DNA of 64,000 nt from an uncultured Eubacterium sp. (GCA_910585745.1 CAJUFM010000003.1:1-64000), one strand, 5' to 3'. Positions 33,600-58,897 are shown, numbered from the stretch's first letter. The notes: a model not told the origin generated them from the sequence alone. Translations and numbers: made by a program.

Positions 33600-33663
33600 T
33601 TTCTTGCCCTCCTATAATTTGATATTTTGTAGTAAAAAGTCTATATGGATTGTCATGATGTTG

Positions 33664-36580: not shown

Positions 36581-36604
36581 CAGGGAACGAAGGAGTGTTG
36601 CATA

Positions 36605-38223: not shown

Positions 38224-38241
38224 TTTGGAGGAACAAATATA

Positions 38242-41622: not shown

Positions 41623-43440
41623 ATGAAGATAAAATTATCCAACTATGTAGCACAGTTTTTAGTGGACCATGGGATTGATACAGTGTTTACTGTGACAGGT
41701 GGCGGTGCCATGCACCTGAACGACGGGCTGGGGCACCAGGAAGGACTGCACTGTGTCTATCAGCACCATGAGCAGGCGTGTGCCATCGCTGGTGAAGCAT
41801 ATGCTAGAATGCATAACAAAATTGGCGCTGTTTGTGTGACCACGGGACCAGGAGGGACCAATGCCATTACCGGTGTGGTAGGAGGATGGCTGGATTCCAT
41901 CCCCATGCTGGTGATCTCCGGCCAGGTCCGCTATGATACTACGGCGAGAAGCACGGGCCTTGGGATCCGGGCGATGGGAGACCAGGAATTTGATATCTGT
42001 AAGGCCGTGGACAGTATGACGAAATACTGCCAGATGGTGATCGATCCTCTGGATATCCGATATTGTCTGGAAAAGGCGCTGTATCTGGCCCAGATTGGAA
42101 GACCGGGGCCATGCTGGCTGGATATACCGGTAAATGTGCAGGGAGCATTTATTGAGACCGAAGAACTTCGTTCTTTTGATCCGGCAGAATGCGTTGCAGA
42201 AGTTCCGGCAAAGCCATCGGAGGAAACCATAGATACGATCATTGAAAAGATCAAACAGGCAAAGCGTCCGGTGATCAATGCCGGAAACGGAATCCGGATC
42301 TCCGGCGGTTATGAGGATTTCTGCCAGATGGTGGACAAGCTGAATATCCCGGTAGTGACCGGCTGGAACAGCATTGACCTGATCGCGGATGCGCATCCCT
42401 TGTATGTGGGCCGGGGTGGTATCATGGGAGACCGGGCAGGAAATTTTGCGATCCAGAACAGTGATCTGGTACTTTCCCTTGGAAGCCGTCTGAGTATCCG
42501 CCAGGTGGGGTACAATTATAAGACATGGGCGAGAGAGGCTTATACCATCGTAGTGGATGTGGACGGTGAGGAGCTGAAAAAACCTACGATTCATGTAGAC
42601 ATGCCGGTATGTGCGGATGTGAAAAATGTGATGCAGATGATCAATGAGAAGCTTGGGGATACAAAGCTGGACACAGATCCCTTCTGGCTGGATAAATGCG
42701 ATCACTGGAAAAAGACTTATCCTGTTGTTCTGCCGAAACATTACGAGCAGAAAGGGCTGGCCAACGTCTATGCATTTATTAAGGAAGTCAGCAGAGTCCT
42801 TCCGGAAGATTATGTGACGGTGGTCGGAAATGGTTCCGCCTGTGTGGTGGGAAGCCATGGTTATGAGATCAAAAAGGGACAGAGATTTATTATCAATTCG
42901 GCCATCGCATCCATGGGATACGATCTGCCGGCTGCTATTGGTGCCTGCGTAGCGGAGGGGGGCAGAGAGCTGGTGTGCCTGAGCGGCGACGGAAGCATCC
43001 AGATGAATCTTCAGGAACTACAGACGATTCAGACCAATAAACTGCCTATCAAGATCTTTGTCATCAACAACAATGGGTATCATTCTATTCGTCAGACACA
43101 GACCAATTTCTTTGGAGAACCTTTTGTGGGAATCGGGCCTCAGAGCCATGACCTGGAATTTCCGGATATGAAAAAAATCGCTTATGCCTATGATTATCCA
43201 TTTTTCCGCTGTGAGAGCAATGACGCGCTGGAGGAGACAATACGGCAGGTTTTCGCCACAGAGGGAGCAGTGATCTGTGAGATCATGGTCTCCACGGATC
43301 AGAACTTTGAGCCAAAGTCTTCTACCAAACGGCTGGAGGATGGCACACTGGTATCACCGCCGCTGGAGGACCTGGCGCCATTCCTTGACAGAGAGACATT
43401 CTTAAAAGAGATGATTATAGATCCGGTTTCGGAGGAATGA
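41623..43440 (+). CDS. Thiamine-diphosphate-dependent enzyme (acetolactate-synthase-like fold)
   Basis: N-terminal TPP-enzyme pyrimidine-binding pattern GGGAMHLNDGL...HEQACAIAGEAYAR; GDG-type TPP motif CLSGDGSIQMNLQEL. Confidence 0.75.
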   Translation: MKIKLSNYVAQFLVDHGIDTVFTVTGGGAMHLNDGLGHQEGLHCVYQHHEQACAIAGEAYARMHNKIGAVCVTTGPGGTNAITGVVGGWLDSIPMLVISGQVRYDTTARSTGLGIRAMGDQEFDICKAVDSMTKYCQMVIDPLDIRYCLEKALYLAQIGRPGPCWLDIPVNVQGAFIETEELRSFDPAECVAEVPAKPSEETIDTIIEKIKQAKRPVINAGNGIRISGGYEDFCQMVDKLNIPVVTGWNSIDLIADAHPLYVGRGGIMGDRAGNFAIQNSDLVLSLGSRLSIRQVGYNYKTWAREAYTIVVDVDGEELKKPTIHVDMPVCADVKNVMQMINEKLGDTKLDTDPFWLDKCDHWKKTYPVVLPKHYEQKGLANVYAFIKEVSRVLPEDYVTVVGNGSACVVGSHGYEIKKGQRFIINSAIASMGYDLPAAIGACVAEGGRELVCLSGDGSIQMNLQELQTIQTNKLPIKIFVINNNGYHSIRQTQTNFFGEPFVGIGPQSHDLEFPDMKKIAYAYDYPFFRCESNDALEETIRQVFATEGAVICEIMVSTDQNFEPKSSTKRLEDGTLVSPPLEDLAPFLDRETFLKEMIIDPVSEE

Positions 43441-43441: not shown

Positions 43442-45055
43442 TTATTGGGTGTTTAATTCGTCATATAATAAGATGTTTTTTTCATAGATGAGAATTTTAT
43501 AATCTTTATACTCCTTGATCTCTGAGGTGGCAAGGTAATATTTATCATCAATGGCCTCATCATCTGGAGCGACGAGAATAAAGCATCTGCCAGGGTGCTT
43601 CCCAACATCATAGTATGAGCGGGAGGTCATCCAGTAGTAAGGATAGGAGGGCGTGATGATATAAGAGACGAGTTTAATCTCCCCGTTGGAAAGAGCCATA
43701 TACTTATATGAATTCCAGAAGGTGGAAAAGCCATAATTAAGGTCATTTTCTTTCAAAAAATCGATTAACGTCCCTTCTTCCTGGTCGACTTTGTATTCGT
43801 TGCGGATGGGCAGCACGGTTTCGGTCATGTAATTGAGGTGACCGCATAAAACGATAATCGTTGTGACTGCATAAATAAATCCTTCAAAATATTTACCTTT
43901 TGCTTTGATTAGGTCCGTAAGCAATATGGATGTAAACACGATATTGTGCCAGAATACGAGTTCGTAATATATAATATTGCTTGCATTTGTAAACAGCATT
44001 GTATATAAAAGGAGAAAATTACTGATAAATGCATAAATTGTGTAGAATCTCCAAAATGGTTTTTTTACCTTTTTGTATCGGAGAATCATCCAAACAGGAG
44101 AGACTATCGCGCAGAGGAACATGACAATAAGGTACATGCCAGAGGTGATACCAGAGAGAGATACCAGTTCTTTTTCCCCTGTCGCATAATAAAAGCGGAG
44201 GATGCTTGGAATAAGTTTATTAAAATTTTCAGTTAGTTTTTCCATACTTACAAAAGAAACAGAGCCACTGATGGATTCCAATGTGAGAATCTTTGACAAG
44301 GCTGTGTAACCGGTCACTCCAAGAACTGTCCCGATGATGGTCAATACCAGAAGTATGTTCTGTTTTTTGTTTTTGAGAACAAGCTCGATACGAAACTGGT
44401 TTTCAATATATGAAAACACGGGAAATGAAACGACAATCGGCAGGGTAAAAAGAAATATGCTTTTCATGCCTTTTATGCTGCATAAAAAAATGAGGATAAA
44501 CCAAACAATATAGAGAAGGGGAAGATAATTACGGCGTTCTTCCTGCGCCGCCTGTGAAAAGAGCAACCGGTATATCAGAAGCATTAGAAGAAGATCCCAA
44601 ATGATCTGATATGTATAGGCTGCCTCATAAAATGTTTCCCAATAGTGCATCATGGGAAGAGTCAGCATGAGAATAGAAAGCAGAGCAGCGGTATACCGGT
44701 TTTTTCCAGACAATGTATGGTGATAAAAATAAAAAATCAAGACAATGGCAGCCAATACTAAAAGAATTACGGTCAATTCCCTGCACAACAGCCAGTCCTG
44801 ACAAAATAGCCTTAATACCAGAACGATCAGTTCCGGAGAAAATATGAGGATTCCTGTGGTATAGCAGAAACCATCTGGGAAAAACTGGCGGGTTTTGATC
44901 TGTTCGTCAGCCATGAGCAGCCAGTATGCCATATCTGAAGTAAAGATGGATCTTGTACAGTACAAAATATAAAACAGGACAGCGGATATGCTGAAAACCG
45001 TCATTATAAATAATAAAAGTTTACGTTTTGAAAAGCTTCTTCGTTTTGGATGCAT
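43442..45055 (-). CDS. Polytopic membrane protein with C-terminal soluble domain; putative GT-C-type glycosyltransferase
   Basis: ~12 predicted TM helices in the first 400 aa, then a ~130-aa hydrophilic tail; context next to the UbiA/GtrA module. Confidence 0.45.
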   Translation of the reverse strand: MHPKRRSFSKRKLLLFIMTVFSISAVLFYILYCTRSIFTSDMAYWLLMADEQIKTRQFFPDGFCYTTGILIFSPELIVLVLRLFCQDWLLCRELTVILLVLAAIVLIFYFYHHTLSGKNRYTAALLSILMLTLPMMHYWETFYEAAYTYQIIWDLLLMLLIYRLLFSQAAQEERRNYLPLLYIVWFILIFLCSIKGMKSIFLFTLPIVVSFPVFSYIENQFRIELVLKNKKQNILLVLTIIGTVLGVTGYTALSKILTLESISGSVSFVSMEKLTENFNKLIPSILRFYYATGEKELVSLSGITSGMYLIVMFLCAIVSPVWMILRYKKVKKPFWRFYTIYAFISNFLLLYTMLFTNASNIIYYELVFWHNIVFTSILLTDLIKAKGKYFEGFIYAVTTIIVLCGHLNYMTETVLPIRNEYKVDQEEGTLIDFLKENDLNYGFSTFWNSYKYMALSNGEIKLVSYIITPSYPYYWMTSRSYYDVGKHPGRCFILVAPDDEAIDDKYYLATSEIKEYKDYKILIYEKNILLYDELNTQ

Positions 45056-45218
45056 ATTATAACCTCATTTCGACTGGAATAAATTCATATTATCATGCAG
45101 GGGATAGAAAGTCAAACAATAATTGACTTTCTACCATTTTGTGTTAAAATAAAAGTAATATTGTTTGAATTTTTTTCCACAATCAAGACGGATACTGTGA
45201 ATAACAAGGAGATGCGGT

Positions 45219-46082
45219 ATGTACAAATATCTTAAGCTACTACGTGTAAAACACTATATTAAAAATTTTCTGATATTTTGCCCTGCTTTTTTTGGAAGAA
45301 CGTTTTTTTATGGAAATGCAATTCTTGAATGTGGCATTGCTTTTTTGACCTTTAGTTTTTTGTCTTCTATTGTCTATATTATAAATGATATTCATGATCT
45401 GGAAAAAGACAGACTTCATCCTGAGAAGTCGAAACGTCCTATTGCATCTGGTGCGGTTTCCCAAAAACAGGCATGGACGGTTGCCCTTATACTTGGCGGT
45501 CTGGTAGTGCTGTTGCAGGTCTTTACTCACTTGCTGGAATGGCAGACCTGGCTTGTGCTGATATTTTATTTTGTGATTAATATGGCATACAGTATATGGG
45601 GATTGAAAGGATATCCTTTGGTTGATGTATTTGTCTTGGCTTTGGGGTTTGTACTGAGGATTATGTTTGGATCAGTCTGCACTGGGATAGAGGTGTCCCA
45701 ATGGCTGTATCTGGTTGTCTTTTCCGGTTCACTGTTTATGGGATTTGGAAAGCGTAGAAATGAATTGCTCCAGTGTCAGGATACGACGAGGGCGGTGTTA
45801 TCAAAATATAACAAAGAGTATCTGGGCAGATGTCTGTCGGCCTGTATGACATTAAGTATTGTATTTTACTCATTTTGGTGCATGGAACGGGATCAGATGT
45901 ACGGAGACAAGTATTATTTGTACACGGTTCCAGTTTTTGTATTTATTATGCTGAAATATTCCTATGATATTGAAAATGATGAAGACGGGGATCCAACTAA
46001 CGTTATTTTAAATGATAAAATCCTGATTTTATGTGTGCTGATTTTAGCTGTTCTTTTTGCAGTGCTAATGTATTTGGTATAA
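45219..46082 (+). CDS. UbiA-family polyprenyl-phosphate 5-phosphoribosyltransferase (Rv3806c/DPPR-synthase-like)
   Basis: Motif YIINDIHDLEKDRLHPEKSKRPIASG matches the NDxxDxxxD-RxHPxKxxRPxAsG signature of DPPR synthases; 8-9 TM helices; C-terminal DGDPTNVILNDKILIL. Confidence 0.65.
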   Translation: MYKYLKLLRVKHYIKNFLIFCPAFFGRTFFYGNAILECGIAFLTFSFLSSIVYIINDIHDLEKDRLHPEKSKRPIASGAVSQKQAWTVALILGGLVVLLQVFTHLLEWQTWLVLIFYFVINMAYSIWGLKGYPLVDVFVLALGFVLRIMFGSVCTGIEVSQWLYLVVFSGSLFMGFGKRRNELLQCQDTTRAVLSKYNKEYLGRCLSACMTLSIVFYSFWCMERDQMYGDKYYLYTVPVFVFIMLKYSYDIENDEDGDPTNVILNDKILILCVLILAVLFAVLMYLV

Positions 46083-46096
46083 AGGGGATTCTAGAC

Positions 46097-46660
46097 ATGA
46101 ATGTTTATGATTTTGACGGAACTATATATCGTGGGGACAGTACAGTTGATTTTTATTTTTTTTGTTTGTTCCGCTATCCTTTGATGATATTCAGTGTACC
46201 CGTCCAGTTTTGGGGAATGGTATCTTATAAAGCGGGACGGATCGATAAGACGCAGATGAAAAGTTATTTTTTTTCCTTTTTAAAAAAGGTAAAGAAAAAA
46301 GATGAAATAATACAGAAATTCTGGAAAAAAAATATAAAAAAGATCTACGCCTGGTATCGGAATCAGCAAGAGGAGGATGATGTTATTATCTCGGCCTCGC
46401 CGGAATTTTTGCTACAGCCGGTGTGCAACCAGCTGGGAATAAAAAATCTCGTTGCCTCAGAGGTTGATCTTTCTACAGGAAAATTTCTTGGAAAGAATTG
46501 TTACGGTGAAGAAAAAATCCGCAGATTTCAGGAAGCCTATGGTGCCAAGGCTGAAATTCAGAACTTTTATTCGGATTCCATATCAGACCTGCCCATGGCG
46601 CAAATGGCAGCAAAGGCATTTTTTTGCAGAAAGGGAGAAAGAAAAAGATGGGAAATATAA
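46097..46660 (+). CDS. HAD-superfamily phosphatase (start at ATG 46097, MNVYDFDGTIY)
   Basis: HAD motif I DFDGT at the N-terminus; AAAGGGG RBS; the track's earlier start overlaps the UbiA gene. Confidence 0.6.
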   Translation: MNVYDFDGTIYRGDSTVDFYFFCLFRYPLMIFSVPVQFWGMVSYKAGRIDKTQMKSYFFSFLKKVKKKDEIIQKFWKKNIKKIYAWYRNQQEEDDVIISASPEFLLQPVCNQLGIKNLVASEVDLSTGKFLGKNCYGEEKIRRFQEAYGAKAEIQNFYSDSISDLPMAQMAAKAFFCRKGERKRWEI

Positions 46661-48693
46661 AGGAACTGTTTAAAAAATATACAGTATTGGAAAGAGTAGT
46701 CCTAATTATACTTTTGGGTTGTTTTGTTGGACAGTTTTTATGGATCTGTTATATCAATCTGTTCCAGTTACAGTACCACCTTGGATATGACGCTTCCTCT
46801 TATTTGCTGAAAAGCATTGAAATGGCAAAGCAGGGAACTCCCTTTATTAGTCAATGGTCTGAGCAGACCAGCCTGTATCTGGATTCAGTGGTTCCTTTTG
46901 CAGCGCTGATCTATAAGGTGACAAATAATATATTTCTTTCTTTTGGAGTCTCGAACCTATTAATGCTTGTAGTTCTGTTGCTTCTATTCTGGCGTCTGTT
47001 ATCTTATTTTATAAGTAGGACAAATCTGGTTGCCAAATTGTTTTCCATTGATTTGTTGATCAGCGCCTATTATCTTACTGGCGGGGACAGTACTAATGAT
47101 CTTTCGTATTCGGCTATGATGTATATGGCGGCTTCGATGTATATCTTTAAGATGATTGCAGTTTTGATGACCATTCTCTGCGTCATGCGTCTCGAAGAAG
47201 GGAAACGATCCTATCTTTTATGCGCCCTTTCCTTAATGATGTTGTTTGTGACAGGGCTTTCGAGTGGAACATATATGCTGTTTACCCTTGTGGTACCATG
47301 TTTTGCTTATGTGCTGGTAAAGGTTTTTTTGAAAAATGACTGGAAGCGTCTCAAATATATTACAGTAATTTATTTGGTAATGAGTGTAATCGCAGTTATT
47401 GCAGGGAAGATATGTACCTCTATGGTTTCCGATTTTGTTGCAAGAGATTCCGCAATGACCTGGTGCGGGGCGCTGGATTTTTGGAAGAACTTAGGCTTAT
47501 TTGTTGTGGCTTATCCACAGGGAATCACAGCAATGACTATGGTGTCGGGAACGGAAATCATGAGTCTGGACGGAATCTTTATGATGTGTGGGCTGGGAAT
47601 TTTGTTTGCTACGGCCGCGGCACTTATTTATTTTGTGAGAAAAGTAGTGAAGGAAAAGGGTAAAGATCACAATTCTCTTCTTTTATTGACAGTGATTGGA
47701 GTCAATGTATGCATGTTTGTTTTCGGATATACATTATATAAGGACATGGATGATTTTTTCCAGACCAGATATCTGATTCCTTTGATGATGCTCTACTTTA
47801 TCTGCATAGGTATCTGGATGGACAGGCTGGATAAGCGCTATATCATTTCAAATCTGATCCTGCTGGCAGTAGCAGGATGCATTCTGGGTATAAATATTAA
47901 GTCGGATGTGGTTTATACCAGAACAAGAGCGAATTACGATGAGCTGTCAGAGCTTTCAGAGATGATAGACAAAAATACGGAAGCACCAGTGGCTTATGTT
48001 CTGGGTGATCTGACAGCGGCCAGGAATCTCCGGGTAATTGATCCAGACAGAGTGTACAAAGGTTTAGATGAAAAAGGCGAGTTTTCCCACTGGGGTGACT
48101 ATCTCTATTATGATGACCCCAAGGAATATCCAGGGGAAGTGATTGTCATAAATAAGAATAATGCGCTGCAGAACCTGGAATCATATTATGATGCCTGTCA
48201 GCTTTTGACAACATACAAGGGATATGAGATTTATAAGATGTCACGAAATATAATGGGGGCATATGCCCCTTCCTTTGATCCTGGAAAAACATACACGTTT
48301 TCGGGGGATAAACGCACAGCAGAAGCTGCTGTGGAAAAGGGACTTTCATATAATGACGGAGATTTTTCGTGGACAGATGGAAATCTTAAAATGAATTTCT
48401 ATTTAAAAAAAACAGAAAACCTTTCCCAAACTGCTACGATCAATTTTGGTGTTAAGGGAGTATGGGCGCTGAAACAGAATGTTAAGGTGAAGATAAACGG
48501 AAAACTGGCAGTTAAAACGAAACTGAATCCAGACTCTACAGTACTGCAGGCGGATTTTGAGGTTCCAGAGGACAGAAGGATTGAACTGGAGCTTGTTCTG
48601 CCAGATAAGAGCAGCCCTTATGAGGAAGGAGTAAATGATGATAAAAGAAGACTGGGACTGCGCATGGTAGATATGCGGGTGGACCTGAAGTGA
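46648..48693 (+). CDS. Large polytopic membrane protein with ~250-aa C-terminal extracytoplasmic domain; putative GT-C glycosyltransferase
   Basis: Multiple TM helices through ~aa 430, then a soluble domain; start at ATG 46648 with AAAGGGAGAAAG RBS. Confidence 0.45.
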   Translation: MGNIKELFKKYTVLERVVLIILLGCFVGQFLWICYINLFQLQYHLGYDASSYLLKSIEMAKQGTPFISQWSEQTSLYLDSVVPFAALIYKVTNNIFLSFGVSNLLMLVVLLLLFWRLLSYFISRTNLVAKLFSIDLLISAYYLTGGDSTNDLSYSAMMYMAASMYIFKMIAVLMTILCVMRLEEGKRSYLLCALSLMMLFVTGLSSGTYMLFTLVVPCFAYVLVKVFLKNDWKRLKYITVIYLVMSVIAVIAGKICTSMVSDFVARDSAMTWCGALDFWKNLGLFVVAYPQGITAMTMVSGTEIMSLDGIFMMCGLGILFATAAALIYFVRKVVKEKGKDHNSLLLLTVIGVNVCMFVFGYTLYKDMDDFFQTRYLIPLMMLYFICIGIWMDRLDKRYIISNLILLAVAGCILGINIKSDVVYTRTRANYDELSELSEMIDKNTEAPVAYVLGDLTAARNLRVIDPDRVYKGLDEKGEFSHWGDYLYYDDPKEYPGEVIVINKNNALQNLESYYDACQLLTTYKGYEIYKMSRNIMGAYAPSFDPGKTYTFSGDKRTAEAAVEKGLSYNDGDFSWTDGNLKMNFYLKKTENLSQTATINFGVKGVWALKQNVKVKINGKLAVKTKLNPDSTVLQADFEVPEDRRIELELVLPDKSSPYEEGVNDDKRRLGLRMVDMRVDLK

Positions 48694-48720
48694 TAGTTTT
48701 GATGGAGAAAATGTAAAAAC

Positions 48721-49200
48721 ATGATAGAAGAAAAAAAGGATTTCTTTGACAGAATTATGTCCTGGCCGGTTCTGGTTCGGTTTGAGCCATGGTATAAAAA
48801 AAATAAAGAAGTGTTGCTGTATCTGTTCTTTGGCGGCCTGACTTTTTTTGTGAGCCTTGGTTCTTTTGTCCTGTTTGACCGCGCAGTGGGGTTCAATGAG
48901 CTGGTTGCGAATGTTATTTCATGGGTTCTGGCGGTTGTATTTGCTTTTTTTACGAACCGTATATGGGTGTTTGAGGGATATACGGAAAACAGAAAAGAGT
49001 TTGTCCAGCAGATGTCCGGGTTCTTTTTGGGCAGAGTTGTGACATTGCTAATCGAAGAGATCATTCTGGCTGTTTTTATATCCTGGCTGGGAATGAACAG
49101 CATTCTTGTAAAAACAGGTGCTCAGATCGTTGTGATTGTAGCAAATTATGTGATCAGCAAATGGTTTGTATTTGGGAAAAAGAATGAGGATAAACAATAG
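48721..49200 (+). CDS. GtrA-family 4-TM protein (lipid-linked sugar flippase candidate, Rv3789-like)
   Basis: FTNRIWVF motif, four TM helices, 159 aa. Confidence 0.7.
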   Translation: MIEEKKDFFDRIMSWPVLVRFEPWYKKNKEVLLYLFFGGLTFFVSLGSFVLFDRAVGFNELVANVISWVLAVVFAFFTNRIWVFEGYTENRKEFVQQMSGFFLGRVVTLLIEEIILAVFISWLGMNSILVKTGAQIVVIVANYVISKWFVFGKKNEDKQ

Positions 49201-49216
49201 ATCATTAGCTGGAGGT

Positions 49217-51220
49217 ATGGCAATGAAAATAATCACAAAACATAAAAAGGAAATCGTGTTTGGCAGTATTGTTGTTATGCAGTTTCTGGCAATCTTTATT
49301 TATAATCTGTTTAAGATCAAATATCAGGCGGATTATGATTCTTCTACTGGAACGGCCTGGCTGGCAGAAGTGGGACGCCAGAAAAAGCTGCTGATCGATC
49401 ACTGGGAGTATACAACGAATGTCGGCTGGGATATTCCCCTGATCCTGGCGGTGCCTCTTTATATGCTCACCGGTCATATTTTTGTTTCGATGGGATTTGC
49501 CAACAATCTGATCATGATGGTGAGTTTATTGGTGATCTGGGATGTGCTGAAGCAGTATAAGATCCGGACGGGCAATATACTGATCGTTTTGTCAGTTTTC
49601 CTTGTGCCGTATACACTGGGGCAGCTCGGATATCTGCCGATGATGTTCACGGGTACGGCATCATATATCATGAAGGCGCTTATTCCGCTGACGATGCTGG
49701 ATGTCATCGTGCGCGTGGAAAGGGGAAGTAAAAAGACAACGGCGAAAATCGTGACCGGTGTGCTACTCATTTTTGTTATGGGGCTGGCATTTCTGACAGG
49801 GTTATCTTCCGGACCATATCTTCTGATTTGTGGTCTTTTTCCCTTTGTTGTCTATCTTGCATTGAGGTCGCTGGTGGAAAATGATCTTCGTGTTCTTGTG
49901 AAAAAATACAGCCTGGCTGTTTATGCCGGGATACTGGCGAGTGCAGCCGGCGTGGTGGCGGCGGGTCTGTTGGGACTTAGCAGTAAAGCGGGAGAGCTTA
50001 CCTTTGTAACCACCGAAAAATTTGCGAGTAATGCCTTGAGCTGTTTTGTCGGGATATGGGATATGTTTGGGGGGATCCGCGAAGGGGAAGCATTGCCGAT
50101 CCTCTCTGCCAGGGGGATCATCAGTCTGTGCAGTATTTGTATCGCATCCTACGTTGTCTGGGTCATACTGTATTATGCGGTGCGTGTTTTACGAAAGAAG
50201 GAGACAAGGACACTAGTATTTGTTGTATTGTGTGTCCAGGTTGTCAATCTCTGTGTATTTTTACTGGCAAATCTGGCTTACCGGGAGAATATCTTTGAGT
50301 CAAGATACCACATTATACCGATGGTGTCTGCCATGCTGCTTACCGGATTGTTTGCAGAGGATATGGAGAAGACGTGGAATGCGCTTTGCCGCAGGGGGGT
50401 GAGTCTGGTATTGGCTGTTTGTGTTCTTTTGTGCAGCGTGTCTAAATTTTTTGTTTTTTATCGGAGAGTAGAGACGTCTTCCGTTATGCGGCTTAGTGGG
50501 ATCACGGAGGTAGCACAAAAACAGGATGTTGACTTAATCTACTTTTTGGCATATGATAACTTTTTAGGGGATGGAAGGATCTTAAGAGTGTGTGATCCGG
50601 AGATTCAAGTTTCAACGCTTCTGGATTATAATATGGGCATTACATGGGGAGCGAGCGAGTATTTTTTTGAAAACAGCTGTCATGAGGGGAAGATTATGGC
50701 GGTTGTTCCAAAAAAGTATGCAAAGAAACTGCCGCAACATATGAGAAAACGGATGGAACTGGTCGATACTGTCCAGGGTTACCGACTGTATGTCGCCTCC
50801 GAAAATATTTTTGACTGTTCTACTGTGCTAAGGGAAGACAGCAAAAAAGTTGTTGATTTTCCATACTCCCCGAATTATCAGATCGGTGGAGAGATCAATG
50901 ACATGGGAGAGCTGGAAATCAGAGATGAGGGAGGCCTGCAGCTTTTTGGACCGTGTATCGAACCGATCAACGGAGTGTATGATATTACATTGAACTATGA
51001 AACAAAGACAGATGCGGCAAAAGGAATGAGCATCGGAAAATTCAATGTATATGATTCGGAAAATAACATCCTTAGTTCAACGGATATTATTTCCGGAGAG
51101 GAGCAATGTATCTTAAAGGATGTGAAGCTGGGAGAAAAAAGCTTCCATTATACAATAGACACCATTCCGAATTCTGGACTACTCGTTCGTTCTATTGTTT
51201 CTGAAAGAATTTCAGAGTGA
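49217..51220 (+). CDS. Large polytopic membrane protein with C-terminal soluble domain; putative GT-C glycosyltransferase (paralog of 46648-48693)
   Basis: Similar architecture to the previous large membrane gene. Confidence 0.45.
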   Translation: MAMKIITKHKKEIVFGSIVVMQFLAIFIYNLFKIKYQADYDSSTGTAWLAEVGRQKKLLIDHWEYTTNVGWDIPLILAVPLYMLTGHIFVSMGFANNLIMMVSLLVIWDVLKQYKIRTGNILIVLSVFLVPYTLGQLGYLPMMFTGTASYIMKALIPLTMLDVIVRVERGSKKTTAKIVTGVLLIFVMGLAFLTGLSSGPYLLICGLFPFVVYLALRSLVENDLRVLVKKYSLAVYAGILASAAGVVAAGLLGLSSKAGELTFVTTEKFASNALSCFVGIWDMFGGIREGEALPILSARGIISLCSICIASYVVWVILYYAVRVLRKKETRTLVFVVLCVQVVNLCVFLLANLAYRENIFESRYHIIPMVSAMLLTGLFAEDMEKTWNALCRRGVSLVLAVCVLLCSVSKFFVFYRRVETSSVMRLSGITEVAQKQDVDLIYFLAYDNFLGDGRILRVCDPEIQVSTLLDYNMGITWGASEYFFENSCHEGKIMAVVPKKYAKKLPQHMRKRMELVDTVQGYRLYVASENIFDCSTVLREDSKKVVDFPYSPNYQIGGEINDMGELEIRDEGGLQLFGPCIEPINGVYDITLNYETKTDAAKGMSIGKFNVYDSENNILSSTDIISGEEQCILKDVKLGEKSFHYTIDTIPNSGLLVRSIVSERISE

Positions 51221-51257: not shown

Positions 51258-52034
51258 ATGAAAGCAGTATTACTTGCAGGGGGATTTGGAACAAGAATCA
51301 GTGAGGAAAGTGCATTTAAACCAAAACCAATGATCGAGATCGGAGAAAAACCGATCCTGTGGCATATTATGAAGGAATATTCGCATTTTGGTATCAATGA
51401 GTTTATTATTTGTGCAGGATATAAGCAGCACGTCATTAAAGAGTGGTTTGCGGATTATTATCTGCATAACAGTGACATCACCTTTGATTATTCCCGGAAT
51501 GGAGAAATGATCGTTCACAACAATATTTCAGAACCATGGAAGGTTACCATTGTGGATACGGGGTTTAATACCATGACGGGAGGCCGTGTCAAACGGATCA
51601 AAAAATATGTAGGAGATGAGACTTTTTTGCTCACATATGGGGATGGTGTCAGTGACGTCGATATCGGGGAACTGGTGAAATTCCATAAGTCACATGGGAA
51701 GATCGCCACGATGAGTTCGTACAATGTTGGACAGCAGTTTGGCGTCCTGGACGTGGACAAGCAGGGCAAAGTTAATGCTTTCCGTGAGAAATCAAATTCC
51801 GACGGTGGTGTGATCAATATTGGGTTTATGGTTTTTGAGCCAGCGATCTTTGATTATATCGAAGGAGACGCCACTGTGTTTGAAAAAGAACCGTTGGAGC
51901 AGCTTGTAAAAGAGGGCGAGCTTATGACGAAGAAGCACGATGGGTTCTGGAAATGTATGGACACCCAAAGAGATAAAATGAAACTGGAAGAGATGTGGGC
52001 GTCTGGCGAGGCGCCGTGGAAAGTATGGAAATGA
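51258..52034 (+). CDS. rfbF: Glucose-1-phosphate cytidylyltransferase
   Basis: MKAVLLAGGFGTRISEESAFKPKPMIEIGEKPILWHIM is a characteristic RfbF/DdhA N-terminus. Confidence 0.85.
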   Translation: MKAVLLAGGFGTRISEESAFKPKPMIEIGEKPILWHIMKEYSHFGINEFIICAGYKQHVIKEWFADYYLHNSDITFDYSRNGEMIVHNNISEPWKVTIVDTGFNTMTGGRVKRIKKYVGDETFLLTYGDGVSDVDIGELVKFHKSHGKIATMSSYNVGQQFGVLDVDKQGKVNAFREKSNSDGGVINIGFMVFEPAIFDYIEGDATVFEKEPLEQLVKEGELMTKKHDGFWKCMDTQRDKMKLEEMWASGEAPWKVWK

Positions 52035-52056
52035 TAAAGCTTACGGAGGGCGATAC

Positions 52057-53115
52057 ATGATTGATTTGACATTTTTCAATGAAAAAAAGATATTGGTGAC
52101 AGGTCATACCGGATTTAAAGGGTCATGGATGTGCCGGACACTCGTGGGAGCAGGAGCAGAGGTGACAGGATATTCCCTCGAAGCTCCAACAGATCCAAAT
52201 CTTTTTGTTATGGCGGATCTGGAAGAAAGAATGAATTCCGTCATCGGCGACATCCGGGATCTGGAAAAACTGTCCCGTGTTTTTGAGGATACTAGACCGG
52301 AGATCGTGATCCATCTCGCCGCGCAGCCGATCGTGAGAGATTCTTATAAAGAGCCGGTATACACCTATGAGACAAATGTCATGGGAACAGTGAATATTTG
52401 TGAGTGCGTCAGAAAAAATAATAGTGTAAAGAGTTTTTTAAATGTTACCACGGATAAAGTATATGAGAATAAGGAGTGGGAGTGGGGATACCGTGAAAAT
52501 GAACCATTGGATGGGTATGATCCATATTCGAACAGTAAATCTTGCTCAGAACTTGTGACACACAGTTACAAGAATTCCTTTTTTACGGATGGAAGGGTGG
52601 CTGTATCTACAGCGAGAGCCGGGAATGTGATTGGCGGCGGAGATTTTGCCAACGACCGGATCATACCGGACTGTGTCAGGGCAGCCAAAGAGAGAAAAGA
52701 TATCATCATTCGGAATCCTTTTTCTACAAGACCGTACCAGCATGTGCTGGAGCCGGTGATGGCATATCTAATGATCGTAAAAGAGCAGTATGGAGATCCC
52801 GGACTGCAGGGATACTACAATGTAGGACCGGATGAGACGGATTGTGTGACCACTGGGGAACTGGTGGATATGTTTGTCCAGCGTTGGGGAGAAGGCCTCA
52901 AATGGATCGACCAGTACGACGGGGGCCCTCACGAGGCAAACTTTTTGAAACTGGATTGTTCAAAACTCAAGACGACATTTGGCTGGAAACCCAGATGGAG
53001 CGTGGCAGAGGCATTAGACAAAACCGTGGAATGGACAAAAGCCTGGTTTGCAGGTGAAAACATTGCAGAAGTCATGGACAGGCAGATCGGGGAATTTGTA
53101 TCTGTGGAACAATAA
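52057..53115 (+). CDS. rfbG: CDP-glucose 4,6-dehydratase
   Basis: KILVTGHTGFKGSWM Rossmann motif; SDR-extended family; Y...K. Confidence 0.8.
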   Translation: MIDLTFFNEKKILVTGHTGFKGSWMCRTLVGAGAEVTGYSLEAPTDPNLFVMADLEERMNSVIGDIRDLEKLSRVFEDTRPEIVIHLAAQPIVRDSYKEPVYTYETNVMGTVNICECVRKNNSVKSFLNVTTDKVYENKEWEWGYRENEPLDGYDPYSNSKSCSELVTHSYKNSFFTDGRVAVSTARAGNVIGGGDFANDRIIPDCVRAAKERKDIIIRNPFSTRPYQHVLEPVMAYLMIVKEQYGDPGLQGYYNVGPDETDCVTTGELVDMFVQRWGEGLKWIDQYDGGPHEANFLKLDCSKLKTTFGWKPRWSVAEALDKTVEWTKAWFAGENIAEVMDRQIGEFVSVEQ

Positions 53116-53139
53116 AAAAGAAAAGGAAAGGAATATACT

Positions 53140-54480
53140 ATGTTTGAAAATCTGAATGAGAAGCAGGCAAAAGAAAATATTCTTGAGATGGTAAAGGAAT
53201 ATTGTAACAAATACCACAATCAGGAGAAGCCGTTTGAAGAGGGGGACAGAATCCCCTATGCCTCCCGTTATTACGGACATGAAGAAATGGTGAACTTGGT
53301 GGATAGTTCGCTGGAATTCTGGCTTACGTCCGGTCGTTATACGGATAAATTCGAAAAGGAGTTTACAGAATATCTTGGGATCCGATACTGTTCTCTTGTA
53401 AATTCTGGTTCATCGGCGAACCTTCTTGCATTTATGGCGCTGACTTCTCATCTTATGGGAGACCGTCGGATTCTGCCAGGAGATGAAGTGATCACTGTGG
53501 CGGCAGGCTTTCCGACGACGATCGCACCGATTATCCAGTATGGGGCAGTTCCGGTATTTGTCGATATGACGATCCCCCAGTACAATATGGATGTCTCCAT
53601 GCTTGAGGAAGCGCTTTCCGACAAGACAAAAGCGATCATGATCGCGCATACGCTTGGCAATCCGTGGGATCTCGGTGCGATCAAAGAATTTTGCGTCAAG
53701 CACAACTTATGGCTGGTAGAGGATAACTGCGATGCCCTCGGTTCCCAGTATACGATCAATGGCGAAGAGAAATTTACCGGAACAATTGGAGATGTGGGAA
53801 CGTCGAGCTTTTATCCGCCCCATCATATGACGATGGGAGAAGGAGGAGCGGTATATACGGATAATCCTATGATCCACAAAGCAGTGCGTTCGCTGAGGGA
53901 CTGGGGACGGGATTGTGTGTGCCCCTCCGGTCGTGACAATATGTGTGGACACCGTTTTGATAAGCAGTATGGGGAACTTCCGCTGGGGTATGACCACAAA
54001 TATGTATACTCCCATTTTGGATATAATCTGAAGGCTACCGATATGCAGGCGGCTGTGGGCTGCGCCCAGCTTGCCAAGTTCCCTGCATTTGTAGAAAAGA
54101 GAAGGCATAACTTTGACAGATTGCGGGAGGCGCTTAAGGATGTGGAGGATAGACTGATTCTTCCAGAGGCGTGCCCGAATTCGAAGCCGAGCTGGTTTGG
54201 TTTCCTTATTACCTGCAGAGAAGGGGTGGATAAAAATAAACTGGTTCAGTATATCGAAGATCACGGCGTGCAGACACGAATGCTTTTTGCGGGAAATATT
54301 GTAAAACAGCCATGCTTTGATGAATTCCGCGTATCCGGAAAAGGATACCGGGTAGTCGGTGACCTGAAGGTGACGGATCGCATTATGAACGATACGTTCT
54401 GGCTGGGCGTTTATCCAGGTATGACGGATGAAAAGATTGATTATATGGCGAAAGTCATCAAAGAAGCACTACAGAATTAA
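53140..54480 (+). CDS. rfbH: DegT-family PMP-dependent CDP-6-deoxy-4-keto-hexose 3-dehydrase (RfbH/E1-like)
   Basis: ~446 aa, N-terminal extension typical of RfbH/DdhC (EEGDRIPYASRYYGHEE), aminotransferase fold. Confidence 0.7.
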   Translation: MFENLNEKQAKENILEMVKEYCNKYHNQEKPFEEGDRIPYASRYYGHEEMVNLVDSSLEFWLTSGRYTDKFEKEFTEYLGIRYCSLVNSGSSANLLAFMALTSHLMGDRRILPGDEVITVAAGFPTTIAPIIQYGAVPVFVDMTIPQYNMDVSMLEEALSDKTKAIMIAHTLGNPWDLGAIKEFCVKHNLWLVEDNCDALGSQYTINGEEKFTGTIGDVGTSSFYPPHHMTMGEGGAVYTDNPMIHKAVRSLRDWGRDCVCPSGRDNMCGHRFDKQYGELPLGYDHKYVYSHFGYNLKATDMQAAVGCAQLAKFPAFVEKRRHNFDRLREALKDVEDRLILPEACPNSKPSWFGFLITCREGVDKNKLVQYIEDHGVQTRMLFAGNIVKQPCFDEFRVSGKGYRVVGDLKVTDRIMNDTFWLGVYPGMTDEKIDYMAKVIKEALQN

Positions 54481-54504
54481 AGTTTTGTGTATGGAACCGT
54501 GTGA

Positions 54505-55458
54505 ATGGAGAACGAGATGAAAAAAGTAATTAGCATAATGATACCCACCTTTAATGAAGAAGAAAATGTGATACCGATTACAGAGGCGGTGATCGATGAA
54601 ATCACGACAAACCTGCCTCAGTATGATTATGAGATATTATTTATCGATAATGATTCTACGGACTCGACAAGAGAAAAGATCCGGCAGTTATGCAGCAGGG
54701 ACCAGAAGATCAAGGCAATATTTAACGTGAAAAACTTTGGGCAGTTTAACTCACCCTTTCATGGCCTTCTGGAGACGACAGGTGACTGCACGATTCTGCT
54801 TTGTGCCGATTTTCAGGACCCAATCCCGATGATTACGCAATTTGTGCATGAATGGGAAAAAGGTTATAAAATTGTGATCGGGATCAAATCCACAAGTAAA
54901 GAAAATAAGATTATGTATTTTCTTCGGAGTTGTTATTATAAACTGATCAAAAAGATGTCAAGTGTAGAACAGATTGAACATTTTACTGGATTTGGTTTAT
55001 ATGACAAGGATTTTATGAATGTTCTGCGGAGTCTGGATGAACCGATGCCATTTCTGCGGGGAATCGTAGCGGAGCTTGGATTTAAGCGGAAGGATATCGA
55101 ATACCAGCAGGAAAAACGGCGTGCGGGTAAAACTCATAATAACTGGTATAGTTTATATGATGCGGCGATGCTCAGTTTTACTTCTTACACTAAGGTTGGA
55201 ATGCGGATTGCTACAATTCTGGGTTTCATTTTGTCAGGGATCAGCATTGCAGTGGCCTTTGTTTACCTGATCATGAAACTTCTTTTCTGGGACAGGTTTG
55301 TGGCGGGGATGGCGCCAATCCTGCTGGGGATTTTCATCTTTGGTTCAATCCAGTTGTTTTTTATTGGGCTGCTGGGAGAGTATATCATGAGTATTAACTC
55401 CAGAGTGACACGAAGGCCTCTTGTTGTTGAAGAGGAACGGATTAATTTTGATAAATAG
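54505..55458 (+). CDS. GT2 polyprenyl-phosphate sugar synthase (GtrB-like) with two C-terminal TM helices
   Basis: IPTFNEEENV...FIDNDSTDST...NFGQFNSPFHGL...CADFQDP plus C-terminal TM pair. Confidence 0.75.
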   Translation: MENEMKKVISIMIPTFNEEENVIPITEAVIDEITTNLPQYDYEILFIDNDSTDSTREKIRQLCSRDQKIKAIFNVKNFGQFNSPFHGLLETTGDCTILLCADFQDPIPMITQFVHEWEKGYKIVIGIKSTSKENKIMYFLRSCYYKLIKKMSSVEQIEHFTGFGLYDKDFMNVLRSLDEPMPFLRGIVAELGFKRKDIEYQQEKRRAGKTHNNWYSLYDAAMLSFTSYTKVGMRIATILGFILSGISIAVAFVYLIMKLLFWDRFVAGMAPILLGIFIFGSIQLFFIGLLGEYIMSINSRVTRRPLVVEEERINFDK

Positions 55459-55472
55459 ACGGGAGCTGTATT

Positions 55473-58650: not shown

Positions 58651-58710
58651 AGAGAAAGAATAGGGAGAAAGCCTAGAAAAACCTTTTCAAACGAACCAAT
58701 GTGTGGTAAA

Positions 58711-58867: not shown

Positions 58868-58897
58868 AAACTGTAGAATAACTTTGGAGGGAAAATC

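What the first reader, a model, noticed from the sequence alone, without database searches (positions are those of the whole stretch)
45219..51220. Mycobacterial-type polyprenyl-phosphate phosphoribose (DPA-like) pathway genes in a Firmicute glycan locus
A UbiA-family protein carrying the NDxxDxxxD-RxHPxKxxRPxAsG signature of decaprenyl-phosphate 5-phosphoribosyltransferase (Rv3806c) is followed by a HAD phosphatase with DFDGT, a GtrA-like protein (like the Rv3789 flippase) and two large putative GT-C transferases. A third GT-C-like gene is convergent upstream. In Corynebacterineae this chemistry yields DPR/DPA, the donor for arabinofuranosyl transfer. No DprE1/DprE2 epimerase pair is visible in this window. 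The predicted donor is therefore polyprenyl-P-ribofuranose, or another pentofuranose if the epimerases lie elsewhere. This lipid-linked pentose route is not one I associate with Clostridia.
Basis: partly seen in the sequence, partly recalled or inferred. Interest (0 to 1): 0.75.

Follow-up and report, generated by a model that had tools for sequence, protein, structure and literature searches.

The report
Lipid-linked ribofuranose side-chain glycosylation cassette
A four-gene cassette in a gut Firmicute's wall-polysaccharide locus probably makes a lipid-linked ribose donor and adds it to a surface glycan outside the cell; this system was described in 2024 and I find it common in Firmicutes, so it is a new example and not a mycobacterial oddity.

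Summary
The UbiA-like protein (45219-46082) belongs to the polyprenyl-phosphate 5-phosphoribosyltransferase family: it passes the NCBIfam equivalog cut-off, and its best solved relative is M. tuberculosis Rv3806c. A HAD phosphatase, a GT-C-fold transferase with a CBM-like tail, and a GtrA flippase follow it. This matches the "three-component" pentofuranose side-chain system of Kelly et al. 2024 (PNAS), which already notes split phosphatases, SMR-type flippases, extra GT-Cs and Gram-positive examples.

It is not rare in Clostridia. At least 555 species-level genomes encode relatives. At least 74 of the best 80 loci are Bacillota, usually with an adjacent HAD and large polytopic proteins.

No DprE1 or DprE2 homolog is in the window, and no DprE1 in the 80 related loci. 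The predicted donor is polyprenyl-P-ribofuranose.

Two corrections:
- The upstream GT-C gene is divergent from UbiA, not convergent. Its ortholog travels with an amino-sugar module.
- The second downstream GT-C (49223-51220) has an ortholog that travels with the CDP-dideoxyhexose/GT2/DUF6311 module in a locus with no UbiA gene.

The pentose cassette is most likely 45219-49200 only. Verdict: a real feature, a new member of a known kind, of modest interest.

The parts
45105..45150 (+). Promoter-like site TTGACT-16-TAAAAT with TG extension (45123-45150). It is overlapped by a perfect 11-bp inverted repeat, TAGAAAGTCAA-N7-TTGACTTTCTA (45105-45133), in the 163-bp divergent spacer. RBS AAGGAG lies at 45207-45212.
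   Evidence: Consensus scan and sequence read. This is a pattern match only; function is inferred.
45219..46082 (+). Polyprenyl-phosphate 5-phosphoribosyltransferase (PPPRS/DPPRS, UbiA superfamily), 287 aa. Predicted to transfer ribose-5-P from PRPP to polyprenyl phosphate.
   Evidence: NF008978 208.8 bits, cut-off 207; next non-PRTase UbiA model 55.9 bits. Full-length match to Rv3806c structure 8j8j, E 1.8e-42, against 9.5e-8 for a generic UbiA. Of 13 Rv3806c residues described as contacting substrate or Mg2+ (most tested by mutation), 10 are identical, 2 are substituted (Q135->N, Y157->F) and 1 is unaligned.
46097..46660 (+). HAD-IB phosphatase, 187 aa, DxDGT at residues 5-9. Predicted phosphoribose 5-phosphatase (PRP) giving polyprenyl-P-ribofuranose.
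   Evidence: PF12710 and TIGR01488. Aligns to the N-terminal HAD domain of the fused HAD-UbiA protein of Rhizobium sp. CCGE531, E 2e-4, and weakly to the HAD part of NF006088. A homolog lies within 300 bp of UbiA in 45 of 80 loci.
46648..48693 (+). GT-C1: GT-C-fold glycosyltransferase, 681 aa, about 10 or more TM helices. Invariant Asp48 (LGYDAS) follows TM1. A C-terminal CBM-like beta-sandwich starts at about residue 570. Predicted pentofuranosyltransferase.
48721..49200 (+). GtrA-family small membrane protein, 159 aa, 4 predicted TM segments. Predicted flippase for the lipid-linked sugar.
   Evidence: PF04138, E 2.2e-23. GtrA is fused to the HAD in at least 10 related loci. It is adjacent in Lactococcus pF27D and in L093.
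49223..51220 (+). GT-C2: paralog of GT-C1, 665 aa. Its membership of the pentose cassette is doubtful; it more likely opens the next module (rfbF-rfbG-rfbH-GT2-DUF6311).
   Evidence: 25% identity to GT-C1 over 526 aa. Its 43.5% ortholog P0236 lies in the order YfhO/GT-C2/rfbG/rfbH/GT2/DUF6311, with no UbiA, HAD or GtrA homolog found in that 13.8-kb locus.
43442..45055 (-). Divergently transcribed GT-C-fold protein, 537 aa, invariant SD41 after TM1. Probably serves the amino-sugar module at 35447-40131, not the pentose cassette.
   Evidence: AF2 pLDDT 86.8, pTM 0.87. Foldseek hits: PglB, AglB, ALG12, ArnT, AftA, AftB, PimE. Its 47% ortholog P0171 lies directly upstream of DegT/GT2/ATP-grasp, with no UbiA gene called in that locus.

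Best explanation
Genes 45219-49200 form a four-gene cassette of the 'three-component' extracytoplasmic pentofuranose glycosylation type.

1. [quoted passage not shown] The enzyme family is shown; the reaction is inferred from that family. That the carrier is undecaprenyl phosphate is an assumption.
2. The separate HAD-IB phosphatase removes the 5-phosphate to give polyprenyl-P-beta-D-ribofuranose. This is inferred from homology to the PRP domain of fused enzymes and from conserved adjacency.
3. The GtrA protein flips the donor across the membrane (inferred).
4. GT-C1 transfers the pentofuranose as a side-chain decoration onto a completed wall polysaccharide. Its C-terminal CBM-like domain is assumed to hold the acceptor polymer.

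The acceptor is probably the polymer made by the Wzm/Wzt ABC-transporter pathway and GDP-mannose/6-deoxyhexose genes of the same locus (inferred from context). No epimerase is linked to the cassette, so the sugar is most likely ribofuranose. It would be alpha-linked if GT-C1 inverts, as the characterised Citrobacter enzyme does.

GT-C2 and the divergent upstream GT-C are relatives that most likely use the two other lipid-linked donors encoded in this mosaic locus.
For: - PPPRS family membership.
- HAD.
- GtrA.
- GT-C fold plus CBM-like tail.
- Tight same-strand packing, with gaps of 14, -13, 27 and 22 bp and no intergenic terminator.
- The same module with a GT-C1 ortholog occurs in L092 (UbiA/630-aa protein/HAD-GtrA fusion/GT-C1) and L093 (UbiA/HAD/GtrA/GT-C1), next to GDP-mannose-pathway genes. 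L093 also carries Wzt, a methyltransferase and GT4 genes.
- In 80 related loci, a HAD lies within 300 bp in 45. At least one large polytopic protein lies within 4 kb in 67, and at least two in 34.
- No DprE1 hit in the window or in the 80 loci.
- The backbone context is Wzm, Wzt with Wzt_C, a methyltransferase, GT4s, ManA/ManC/Gmd and an SDR. This parallels the C. youngae O1 locus, where this chemistry was proven (PMC11127046).
Against: - There is no biochemical or structural-glycan data for this organism.
- GT-C donor specificity cannot be read from sequence. More distant members of the GT-C1 family sit in loci without UbiA. One 46% homolog sits next to a PgfS-like GT2 behind an IS element.
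- The locus encodes at least three lipid-linked donor modules and five GT-C-like proteins, so donor-transferase pairing rests on synteny alone.
- Epimerases could be encoded outside the 64-kb window.
- GT-C1 shows no detectable sequence similarity to one Proteobacterial GT-C candidate from the 2024 paper.
- The NCBIfam score clears its cut-off by under 2 bits.
Confidence: 0.72

Rival explanations
1. One reading: all three GT-C proteins (upstream, GT-C1, GT-C2) use the pentose donor. Together they build an oligo-pentofuranosyl branch or decorate several acceptor sites, as the multiple Aft/Emb enzymes do in mycobacteria.
For: All three are GT-C folds flanking the PPPRS gene. GT-C1 and GT-C2 are paralogs. 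34 of 80 related loci have at least two large polytopic proteins near UbiA. L092 has two large membrane proteins inside its UbiA module. Kelly et al. mention systems with several GT-Cs.
Against: A GT-C2 ortholog keeps its place next to rfbG/rfbH/GT2/DUF6311 in a locus lacking UbiA/HAD/GtrA. An upstream-GT-C ortholog sits next to DegT/GT2/ATP-grasp without UbiA. The second membrane protein of L092 is not a GT-C2 ortholog.
Confidence: 0.15
2. The lipid-linked ribose is epimerised before transfer, to arabinofuranose or xylofuranose. The enzymes would be encoded elsewhere in the genome or be a non-orthologous SDR. The decoration would then be Araf or Xylf, not Ribf.
For: Only 64 kb of the genome is visible. 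Kelly et al. showed that a single GalE-like SDR converts the donor to Xylf and that the GT-C tolerates either sugar. An unassigned SDR lies at 62883-63827. An NAD-dependent epimerase/dehydratase (SDR) cluster occurs in 13 of the 80 related loci.
Against: No DprE1 or DprE2 hit in the window, and no DprE1 hit in 80 related 20-kb loci. In the characterised and candidate systems the epimerase genes lie in the same cluster as the PPPRS. The 62883 SDR follows Gmd directly, as in L092 and L096, which fits a GDP-6-deoxyhexose reductase.
Confidence: 0.12
3. The cassette glycosylates something other than the ABC-transporter-dependent wall polysaccharide, for example lipoteichoic acid or a surface protein, as in Pseudomonas Pa5196 pilin arabinosylation.
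For: GT-C enzymes act on proteins, lipids and glycans alike (fold neighbours PglB, Pmt and ArnT). The acceptor is not encoded in the sequence.
Against: The cassette is embedded in a 45-kb-plus glycan locus, and its orthologs sit in GDP-mannose-pathway glycan clusters. The C-terminal domain resembles carbohydrate-binding modules.
Confidence: 0.08
4. The UbiA-like protein is an ordinary aromatic or quinone prenyltransferase (MenA/UbiA type), and the neighbouring genes are unrelated.
For: It belongs to the UbiA superfamily.
Against: PRTase models score 170-209 bits, against 56 bits or less for any prenyltransferase model. Rv3806c gives E 1.8e-42, against 9.5e-8 for the best generic UbiA structure. 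The PRPP-binding K/R cluster and the Lys28 and Tyr70 equivalents are conserved; Lys28 and Tyr70 bind the 5-phosphate, and the phosphoribose-binding sites are the ones reported as not conserved in prenyltransferases.
Confidence: 0.02

Closest known systems
Three-component pentofuranose side-chain glycosylation system of Citrobacter youngae O1/O2 (ORF15 PPPRS-PRP, ORF14 flippase, ORF12 GT-C/GT136; Kelly et al. 2024, PMC11127046)
   Same: - A UbiA-type PPPRS and a HAD-type phosphoribose phosphatase.
- A small flippase.
- A GT-C with ArnT as nearest structure and a C-terminal CBM.
- Embedded in an ABC-transporter (Wzm/Wzt-CBM) glycan locus with GDP-mannose/6-deoxyhexose genes and a methyltransferase.
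- No DprE1/E2, so ribofuranose is predicted.
   Different: - The phosphatase is a separate protein here. The paper notes one such split case, in a phage.
- The flippase is GtrA-family, not the EmrE/ArnE-like ORF14.
- I could not link the GT-C to GT136 by sequence.
- The host is a Gram-positive Firmicute, so the acceptor would be a wall polysaccharide and not LPS O antigen.
- Nothing here has been tested experimentally.
Mycobacterial DPR/DPA pathway (Rv3806c, Rv3807c, DprE1/DprE2, Rv3789, Aft/Emb arabinofuranosyltransferases)
   Same: - The first enzyme is homologous: full-length, with 10 of 13 substrate- or Mg2+-contacting residues identical.
- A GtrA-family putative flippase like Rv3789. That Rv3789 is GtrA-family rests on my own knowledge; the paper's supplement describes Rv3789 and GtrA models as sharing one fold.
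- GT-C-fold transferases outside the membrane.
   Different: - No DprE1 or DprE2.
- The phosphatase is HAD-IB, not the unrelated (non-HAD) Rv3807c.
- The predicted role is a side-chain decoration and not polymerisation of an essential arabinan.
- The carrier is presumably undecaprenyl, not decaprenyl.
PGAP-annotated UbiA/HAD-IB/GtrA triplets in Bacillota, e.g. the EPS cluster of Lactococcus cremoris plasmid pF27D (NZ_CP068515.2)
   Same: The same three genes in the same order next to an unannotated membrane protein. UbiA is 41.7% identical; the HAD scores 212 bits.
   Different: The adjacent membrane protein is unrelated in sequence to GT-C1. It lies in a Wzx/Wzy-type EPS cluster on a plasmid. 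It is also uncharacterised.
Gtr-type and Csd/Pgf-type three-component hexose glycosylation (GtrA/GtrB/Gtr*, S. mutans PgfS/PgfM)
   Same: The logic is the same: a lipid-phosphate sugar donor, a GtrA flippase and a polytopic GT-C. The same window holds such modules (ArnC-like GT2 at 36605, PgfS-like GT2 at 54505, DUF6311, YfhO).
   Different: The donor synthase here is a PRPP-dependent UbiA-family enzyme plus a phosphatase, not a GT2 that uses a nucleotide sugar.

Membership tests
Polyprenyl-phosphate 5-phosphoribosyltransferase (DPPRS/PPPRS, Rv3806c family) | Scores above the curated cut-off of an NCBIfam equivalog model for decaprenyl-phosphate phosphoribosyltransferase, and far above other UbiA-family models | tested here: met
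   NF008978 208.8 bits against a cut-off of 207, a narrow pass. NF008977 scores 200.8 and NF008976 170.0, both below their cut-offs. The best non-PRTase model scores 55.9 bits.
Polyprenyl-phosphate 5-phosphoribosyltransferase (DPPRS/PPPRS, Rv3806c family) | Conservation of the Mg2+, PRPP and lipid-phosphate contact residues of Rv3806c (R22, K28, Y70, N73, D77, K87, R90, Q135, Y138, K143, Y157, K191, K208) | tested here: met
   R9, K15, Y53, N56, D60, K70, R73, Y124, K130 and K178 are identical. Q135->N121 and Y157->F144 are substituted; Phe also occurs at 157 in some mycobacteria. K208 falls in an insertion. All but F144 are invariant in a 20-sequence alignment of relatives.
Polyprenyl-phosphate 5-phosphoribosyltransferase (DPPRS/PPPRS, Rv3806c family) | PRPP-dependent formation of polyprenyl-P-ribose-5-P | not testable with these tools
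   Needs a membrane assay.
Three-component pentofuranose glycosylation system (Kelly et al. 2024) | PPPRS together with a HAD-family phosphoribose phosphatase (fused or separate) | tested here: met
   The HAD-IB gene starts 14 bp after UbiA. It has a DxDGT motif and aligns to the N-terminal domain of the fused Rhizobium CCGE531 enzyme, E 2e-4. Adjacency is conserved in 45 of 80 loci.
Three-component pentofuranose glycosylation system (Kelly et al. 2024) | A small membrane transporter as candidate flippase in the same cluster | tested here: met
   GtrA family, PF04138, E 2.2e-23. It is a different family from C. youngae ORF14. The paper's supplement accepts both of its transporter classes and groups GtrA and Rv3789 in its SMR-fold class.
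Three-component pentofuranose glycosylation system (Kelly et al. 2024) | A GT-C-fold glycosyltransferase in the same cluster | tested here: met
Three-component pentofuranose glycosylation system (Kelly et al. 2024) | A pentofuranose side chain present on the glycan product | not testable with these tools
   No glycan structure is known for this organism, which appears to be an uncultured Lachnospiraceae-like bacterium (best GTDB relatives 53-54% identical, Lachnospiraceae MAGs).
CAZy GT136 (C. youngae ORF12) | Detectable sequence similarity to ORF12 or its orthologs | tested here: inconclusive
A profile of the GT-C1 family against the GT-C candidate of Rhizobium sp. CCGE531, one of the paper's candidate loci, gave no match (probability 0.3%). 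No Pfam or NCBIfam family covers the membrane domain.
CAZy GT136 (C. youngae ORF12) | Architecture: GT-C membrane domain with ArnT as closest solved structure, plus a C-terminal CBM | tested here: met
   The C-terminal model confidence is only moderate (pLDDT about 50-80). Pfam DUF7024 scores 22.1 bits, below its cut-off of 24.4.
Mycobacterial DPA (arabinofuranose donor) pathway | DprE1 FAD-oxidase and DprE2 reductase that epimerise the lipid-linked ribose | tested here: not met
   No hit at E<=10 in any window ORF of 60 aa or more. No DprE1 hit in the ORFs of 80 related loci. The DprE1 probe was validated; the DprE2 probe was recalled from memory and not validated. The rest of the genome is unseen.
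Mycobacterial DPA (arabinofuranose donor) pathway | An Rv3807c-type phosphatase (a family unrelated to HAD) | tested here: not met
   The phosphatase here is HAD-IB. No PAP2 domain was found in the window ORFs scanned; that Rv3807c is PAP2-type is my own knowledge.

The most novel reading that the evidence does not exclude
GT-C1 founds a new, unnamed glycosyltransferase family. The family has about 1,400 cluster representatives, no Pfam or NCBIfam model for its membrane domain, and no detectable similarity to one Proteobacterial GT-C candidate. One branch of it would be the polyprenyl-P-ribofuranose-dependent ribofuranosyltransferase of Gram-positive wall polysaccharides. Many gut Lachnospiraceae and other Clostridia would then carry alpha-ribofuranosyl decorations on mannan/rhamnan-like wall polymers. 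Such an epitope class has not yet been described for these commensals. It would be swapped in and out as a cassette alongside amino-sugar and dideoxyhexose cassettes.
Probability: 0.45. Interest if true: 0.45.

Novelty: new member of a known kind. Interest (0 to 1): 0.3.

Why it matters
If the prediction holds, this abundant gut Firmicute decorates its wall polysaccharide with ribofuranose through a lipid-linked donor. The exact protein was seen on 107 public contigs. The same four-gene logic would then be a common, exchangeable source of surface-antigen variation across Bacillota.

That bears on host immune recognition, phage receptor diversity and strain typing of commensals. It would also give glycoengineers a Gram-positive set of PPPRS, PRP, GtrA and GT-C parts.

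It does not change the concept. The pathway, its variants and its wide distribution were laid out in 2024.

Tried and rejected
1. Organism identification failed. Exact-sequence cluster look-ups returned no names, and the GTDB representative set holds no relative closer than 54%. The Lachnospiraceae assignment rests only on nearest relatives.
2. The afdb50 fold library was unavailable, so UniProt-level neighbours of GT-C1, including possible GT136 members, could not be checked.
3. I could not obtain the C. youngae ORF12 sequence. The Rhizobium CCGE531 and Lactococcus pF27D neighbours served as stand-ins and showed no sequence relation to GT-C1. The templates were single sequences, so sensitivity was low.
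4. A phage search found only one unannotated 6.6-kb fragment with a 35% relative. I did not pursue it.
5. Literature searches found no characterised Firmicute example and no follow-up to the 2024 paper in the held library.
6. I rejected the SDR at 31485-32249 as a DprE2 candidate. It gave no hit to the DprE2 probe, and it is FabG-like next to a KAS III gene.
7. I rejected the idea that the whole of 45219-51220 is one functional unit once GT-C2 orthologs were found without UbiA.
8. Per-gene GC3 shows only a weak step between the cassette (0.38-0.47) and GT-C2/rfb genes (0.48-0.51). This is not used as evidence.

Full report
OBSERVATION

The stretch 45219-51220 holds five closely packed same-strand genes. 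Gene calls on identical public contigs refine three starts:
- UbiA-like, 45219-46082 (287 aa)
- HAD, 46097-46660 (187 aa, begins MNVYDFDGT)
- polytopic protein GT-C1, 46648-48693 (681 aa)
- GtrA, 48721-49200 (159 aa)
- polytopic protein GT-C2, 49223-51220 (665 aa)

The gaps between them are 14, -13, 27 and 22 bp. I found no intergenic terminator-like site before at least 57638. A good promoter-like site, TTGACT-16-TAAAAT with a TG extension, and an AAGGAG ribosome-binding site precede the UbiA gene.

The upstream polytopic gene, 43442-45055, is on the minus strand with its start at 45055.

WHAT THE UbiA-LIKE PROTEIN IS

Pfam places it only in the UbiA superfamily. NCBIfam is more specific. Three 'decaprenyl-phosphate phosphoribosyltransferase' equivalog models score 208.8, 200.8 and 170.0 bits. 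The first just clears its cut-off of 207. The HAD-UbiA fusion model NF006088 scores 168 bits. The best ordinary prenyltransferase model scores 55.9 bits.

Against solved structures, it aligns end to end with M. tuberculosis Rv3806c (8j8j) at E 1.8e-42. The next hit is a generic UbiA at 9.5e-8.

The Rv3806c structure paper (PMC10994848) names 13 residues that contact the Mg2+, PRPP or the lipid phosphate, most of them tested by mutation. Mapping them through that alignment gives:
- 10 identical: R22, K28, Y70, N73, D77, K87, R90, Y138, K143, K191
- 2 substituted: Q135->N and Y157->F
- 1 in an insertion: K208

These include the K/R cluster that binds the PRPP pyrophosphate, and the Lys28 and Tyr70 contacts to the 5-phosphate. 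The paper says the phosphoribose-binding sites are not conserved in true prenyltransferases.

THE PARTNERS

The HAD protein is HAD-IB (PF12710, TIGR01488). It aligns to the N-terminal domain of the fused HAD-UbiA protein of Rhizobium sp. CCGE531 at E 2e-4. That genome is one of the candidate loci listed by Kelly et al.

GtrA is a clear PF04138 member.

GT-C1 has no Pfam or NCBIfam model for its membrane domain and no sequence match in the PDB. An AlphaFold model built from 24 homologs is confident (pLDDT 82.4, pTM 0.77) and is a GT-C fold:
- Foldseek ranks ArnT first.
- An invariant Asp48 sits just after the first transmembrane helix, where GT-C catalytic aspartates lie.

GT-C2 is a paralog of GT-C1: 25% identity over 526 aa, E 1e-34. 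The upstream 537-aa protein is also a GT-C fold (pLDDT 86.8; PglB, AglB, ALG12, ArnT, AftA, AftB).

WHAT IS ALREADY KNOWN

Kelly, Duong, Nothof, Lowary and Whitfield (PNAS 2024, PMC11127046) characterised this logic in Citrobacter youngae O1/O2. Their system has these parts:
- A UbiA-type polyprenyl phosphoribose synthase fused to a HAD phosphoribose phosphatase makes undecaprenyl-P-ribofuranose from PRPP.
- A small transporter is proposed to flip the donor.
- A GT-C enzyme adds alpha-ribofuranose to a finished O antigen made by a Wzm/Wzt pathway. This enzyme has ArnT as its nearest structure and a C-terminal CBM, and it founded family GT136.
- One SDR epimerase switches the sugar to xylofuranose. 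Systems that add arabinofuranose carry DprE1/E2 homologs.

Their discussion and supplement state that the strategy is widespread. They note that the phosphatase can be a separate protein, that the transporter can be of either of two classes, and that some loci have several GT-Cs or epimerases. They also report candidates in Gram-positive bacteria, giving Bacillus sp. NP157.

The window's backbone machinery resembles the Citrobacter locus. It has Wzm, Wzt with a Wzt_C carbohydrate-binding domain, a 612-aa methyltransferase and several GT4s, plus ManA, ManC, Gmd and a following SDR.

HOW COMMON IT IS IN FIRMICUTES

- The word-indexed protein search found over 1,100 relatives at E<=1e-10. Some are already named decaprenyl-phosphate phosphoribosyltransferase in Butyrivibrio and Spirochaetia, and one is named a UbiA prenyltransferase family protein in Clostridium.
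- A scan of one genome per GTDB species, using two peptide patterns, found at least 555 loci. At least 74 of the best 80 carry Bacillota-lineage names: Lachnospiraceae, Oscillospiraceae, Clostridium, Bacilli, Solibacillus, Erysipelotrichaceae, Filifactor, Pseudobutyrivibrio and Roseburia. Two are Muribaculaceae, one is Spirochaetia and the remaining three have uninformative titles.
- In those 80 loci a HAD homolog is present in 53 and lies within 300 bp of UbiA in 45. At least 10 are HAD-GtrA fusions, and 8 of the HAD-containing ORFs are about 650-770 aa long. At least one large polytopic protein lies within 4 kb in 67 loci, and at least two in 34.
- Lactococcus cremoris plasmid pF27D carries the order hypothetical / decaprenyl-phosphate phosphoribosyltransferase / HAD-IB phosphatase / GtrA in an EPS cluster, as annotated by PGAP.

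I found no experimentally characterised Firmicute example in the library.

WHICH SUGAR

A DprE1 probe, recalled from memory and then validated at 1058 bits against PDB DprE1 entries, found nothing at E<=10 in the window or in the 80 related loci. A DprE2 probe, recalled but not validated, found nothing in the window and one weak hit elsewhere.

No SDR lies inside the cassette. The SDRs in the window are accounted for: an equivalog CDP-glucose 4,6-dehydratase, Gmd, and an SDR directly after Gmd. Ribofuranose is therefore the default prediction. The caveat is that only 64 kb of the genome is visible.

WHICH GT-C BELONGS TO THE CASSETTE

The GT-C1/GT-C2 family is sizeable: 1,402 cluster representatives at E<=1e-3 and 468 at E<=1e-30. 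It is not tied to one donor.

GT-C1 orthologs:
- P0142 (48% identical) lies in the order UbiA / 630-aa membrane protein / HAD-GtrA fusion / GT-C1, followed by ManC, Gmd and an SDR.
- P0143 (47%) lies in the order Wzt / methyltransferase / GT4s / acyltransferase / UbiA / HAD / GtrA / GT-C1.
- Family members also abut UbiA in five of the 80 GTDB loci.
- One 46% homolog instead sits behind an IS element next to a PgfS-like GT2. Members at 25-34% identity lie in loci without UbiA.

GT-C2: its 43.5% ortholog P0236 lies in the order YfhO / GT-C2 / rfbG / rfbH / GT2 / DUF6311. All of these are strongly similar to the window's proteins, and no UbiA, HAD or GtrA is present. That is the gene order downstream of GT-C2 in the window, except that no rfbF lies there.

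The upstream GT-C: its 47% ortholog P0171 lies directly in front of a DegT aminotransferase, a GT2 and an ATP-grasp gene. These match the window's module at 35447-40131, which holds a WecE-like transaminase, an ArnC-like GT2, a NeuD-type acyltransferase, an ATP-grasp and two small EamA proteins.

The simplest reading is that the locus is a mosaic of three lipid-linked-donor modules:
- an amino-sugar module served by the divergent GT-C;
- the pentofuranose cassette 45219-49200 served by GT-C1;
- a CDP-dideoxyhexose module running from GT-C2 through DUF6311.

These pairings are inferences from synteny, not demonstrations.

MECHANISM AND CONFIDENCE

The proposed steps are:
1. PRPP plus polyprenyl-P gives polyprenyl-P-ribose-5-P. 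The enzyme family is shown; the reaction is inferred.
2. The HAD dephosphorylates it (inferred).
3. [quoted passage not shown]
4. GT-C1 transfers the sugar to a wall polysaccharide. The fold is shown; donor and acceptor are inferred.

I put 0.72 on this overall. About 0.15 goes to the version in which all three GT-Cs use the pentose donor. About 0.12 goes to an unseen epimerase changing the sugar.

NOVELTY AND INTEREST

This is a real and coherent feature, and it is a new member of a kind described in 2024. It is widespread in the phylum, and its components are already named by the standard annotation pipeline.

What remains open:
- No Firmicute example has been tested.
- The GT-C partner belongs to an unnamed family that I could not link to GT136.
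- The product glycan is unknown.
- The locus shows an unusually rich stack of three extracytoplasmic modification modules.

Interest 0.3.

Noticed in passing
window 35447-40131: A second lipid-linked donor module. It holds a WecE-like dTDP-4-amino-4,6-dideoxyhexose transaminase (641 bits), an ArnC-like GT2, a NeuD/VioB-type acyltransferase, an ATP-grasp ligase and two small EamA half-transporters (ArnE/F-like). The ATP-grasp suggests an amino-acylated amino sugar. Much the same gene set (DegT aminotransferase, GT2, ATP-grasp; the EamA pair only in L086) lies next to GT-C family members in L086 and L095.
   Followed up: partly
window 41623-43440 and 51258-57638: RfbF, RfbG and RfbH equivalogs (the CDP-3,6-dideoxyhexose route) with a PgfS-like GT2 and a DUF6311 polytopic protein. 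No E3 reductase was recognised among the ORFs scanned. An acetolactate-synthase-like TPP enzyme lies nearby and could add a two-carbon branch (a yersiniose-type sugar); that idea is from memory and was not tested.
   Followed up: partly
window 45105-45133: A perfect 11-bp inverted repeat, TAGAAAGTCAA-N7-TTGACTTTCTA. It spans the -35 boxes of both divergent promoter-like sites between the upstream GT-C gene and the UbiA gene. It is a candidate operator for a shared regulator.
   Followed up: no
window 28500-49200 compared with L098 878-5844: In a related genome, YfhO is followed directly by the GT-C2 ortholog and the rfbG/rfbH/GT2/DUF6311 genes. About 20 kb of the window is therefore variable content between conserved flanks. 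That stretch holds an MBOAT, an acyl-chain module, the amino-sugar module, a 321-aa orphan, the TPP enzyme, the upstream GT-C and the pentose cassette.
   Followed up: partly
window 13952-31444 and 58099-63827: Backbone machinery resembling E. coli O9a and C. youngae O1: Wzm, Wzt with a Wzt_C CBM, a 612-aa methyltransferase with DUF4214 (terminator-like), five GT4-type proteins, YfhO, and ManA/ManC/Gmd plus an SDR. A second GtrA (58099) and a small AglJ/DPM-like GT2 (58898) hint at a fourth donor.
   Followed up: partly
window 31485-35171, minus strand: A FabG-like SDR, a KAS III-like condensing enzyme, a GT2 and a GNAT acetyltransferase lie on the opposite strand inside the glycan locus. An MBOAT (28570-29982) and a 480-aa orphan (30002-31444) lie just upstream. 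This may be an acyl modification of the polymer.
   Followed up: no
L015, L025, L032, L033, L045, L052, L080 (GTDB loci): In several Bacilli/Clostridia MAGs the ORF that carries the HAD is 650-770 aa long, and most of these ORFs are polytopic by my hydropathy count. This suggests phosphatase-transferase (GT-C) fusions, but the fusion partner's fold was not checked. In other loci the HAD is fused to GtrA (about 325-342 aa). Neither fusion is mentioned in the parts of the 2024 paper I read.
   Followed up: partly
window 40439-41404: A 321-aa ORF between modules with no Pfam or NCBIfam hit. From memory it resembles Rpn/PD-(D/E)XK putative transposase proteins; this was not confirmed.
   Followed up: no
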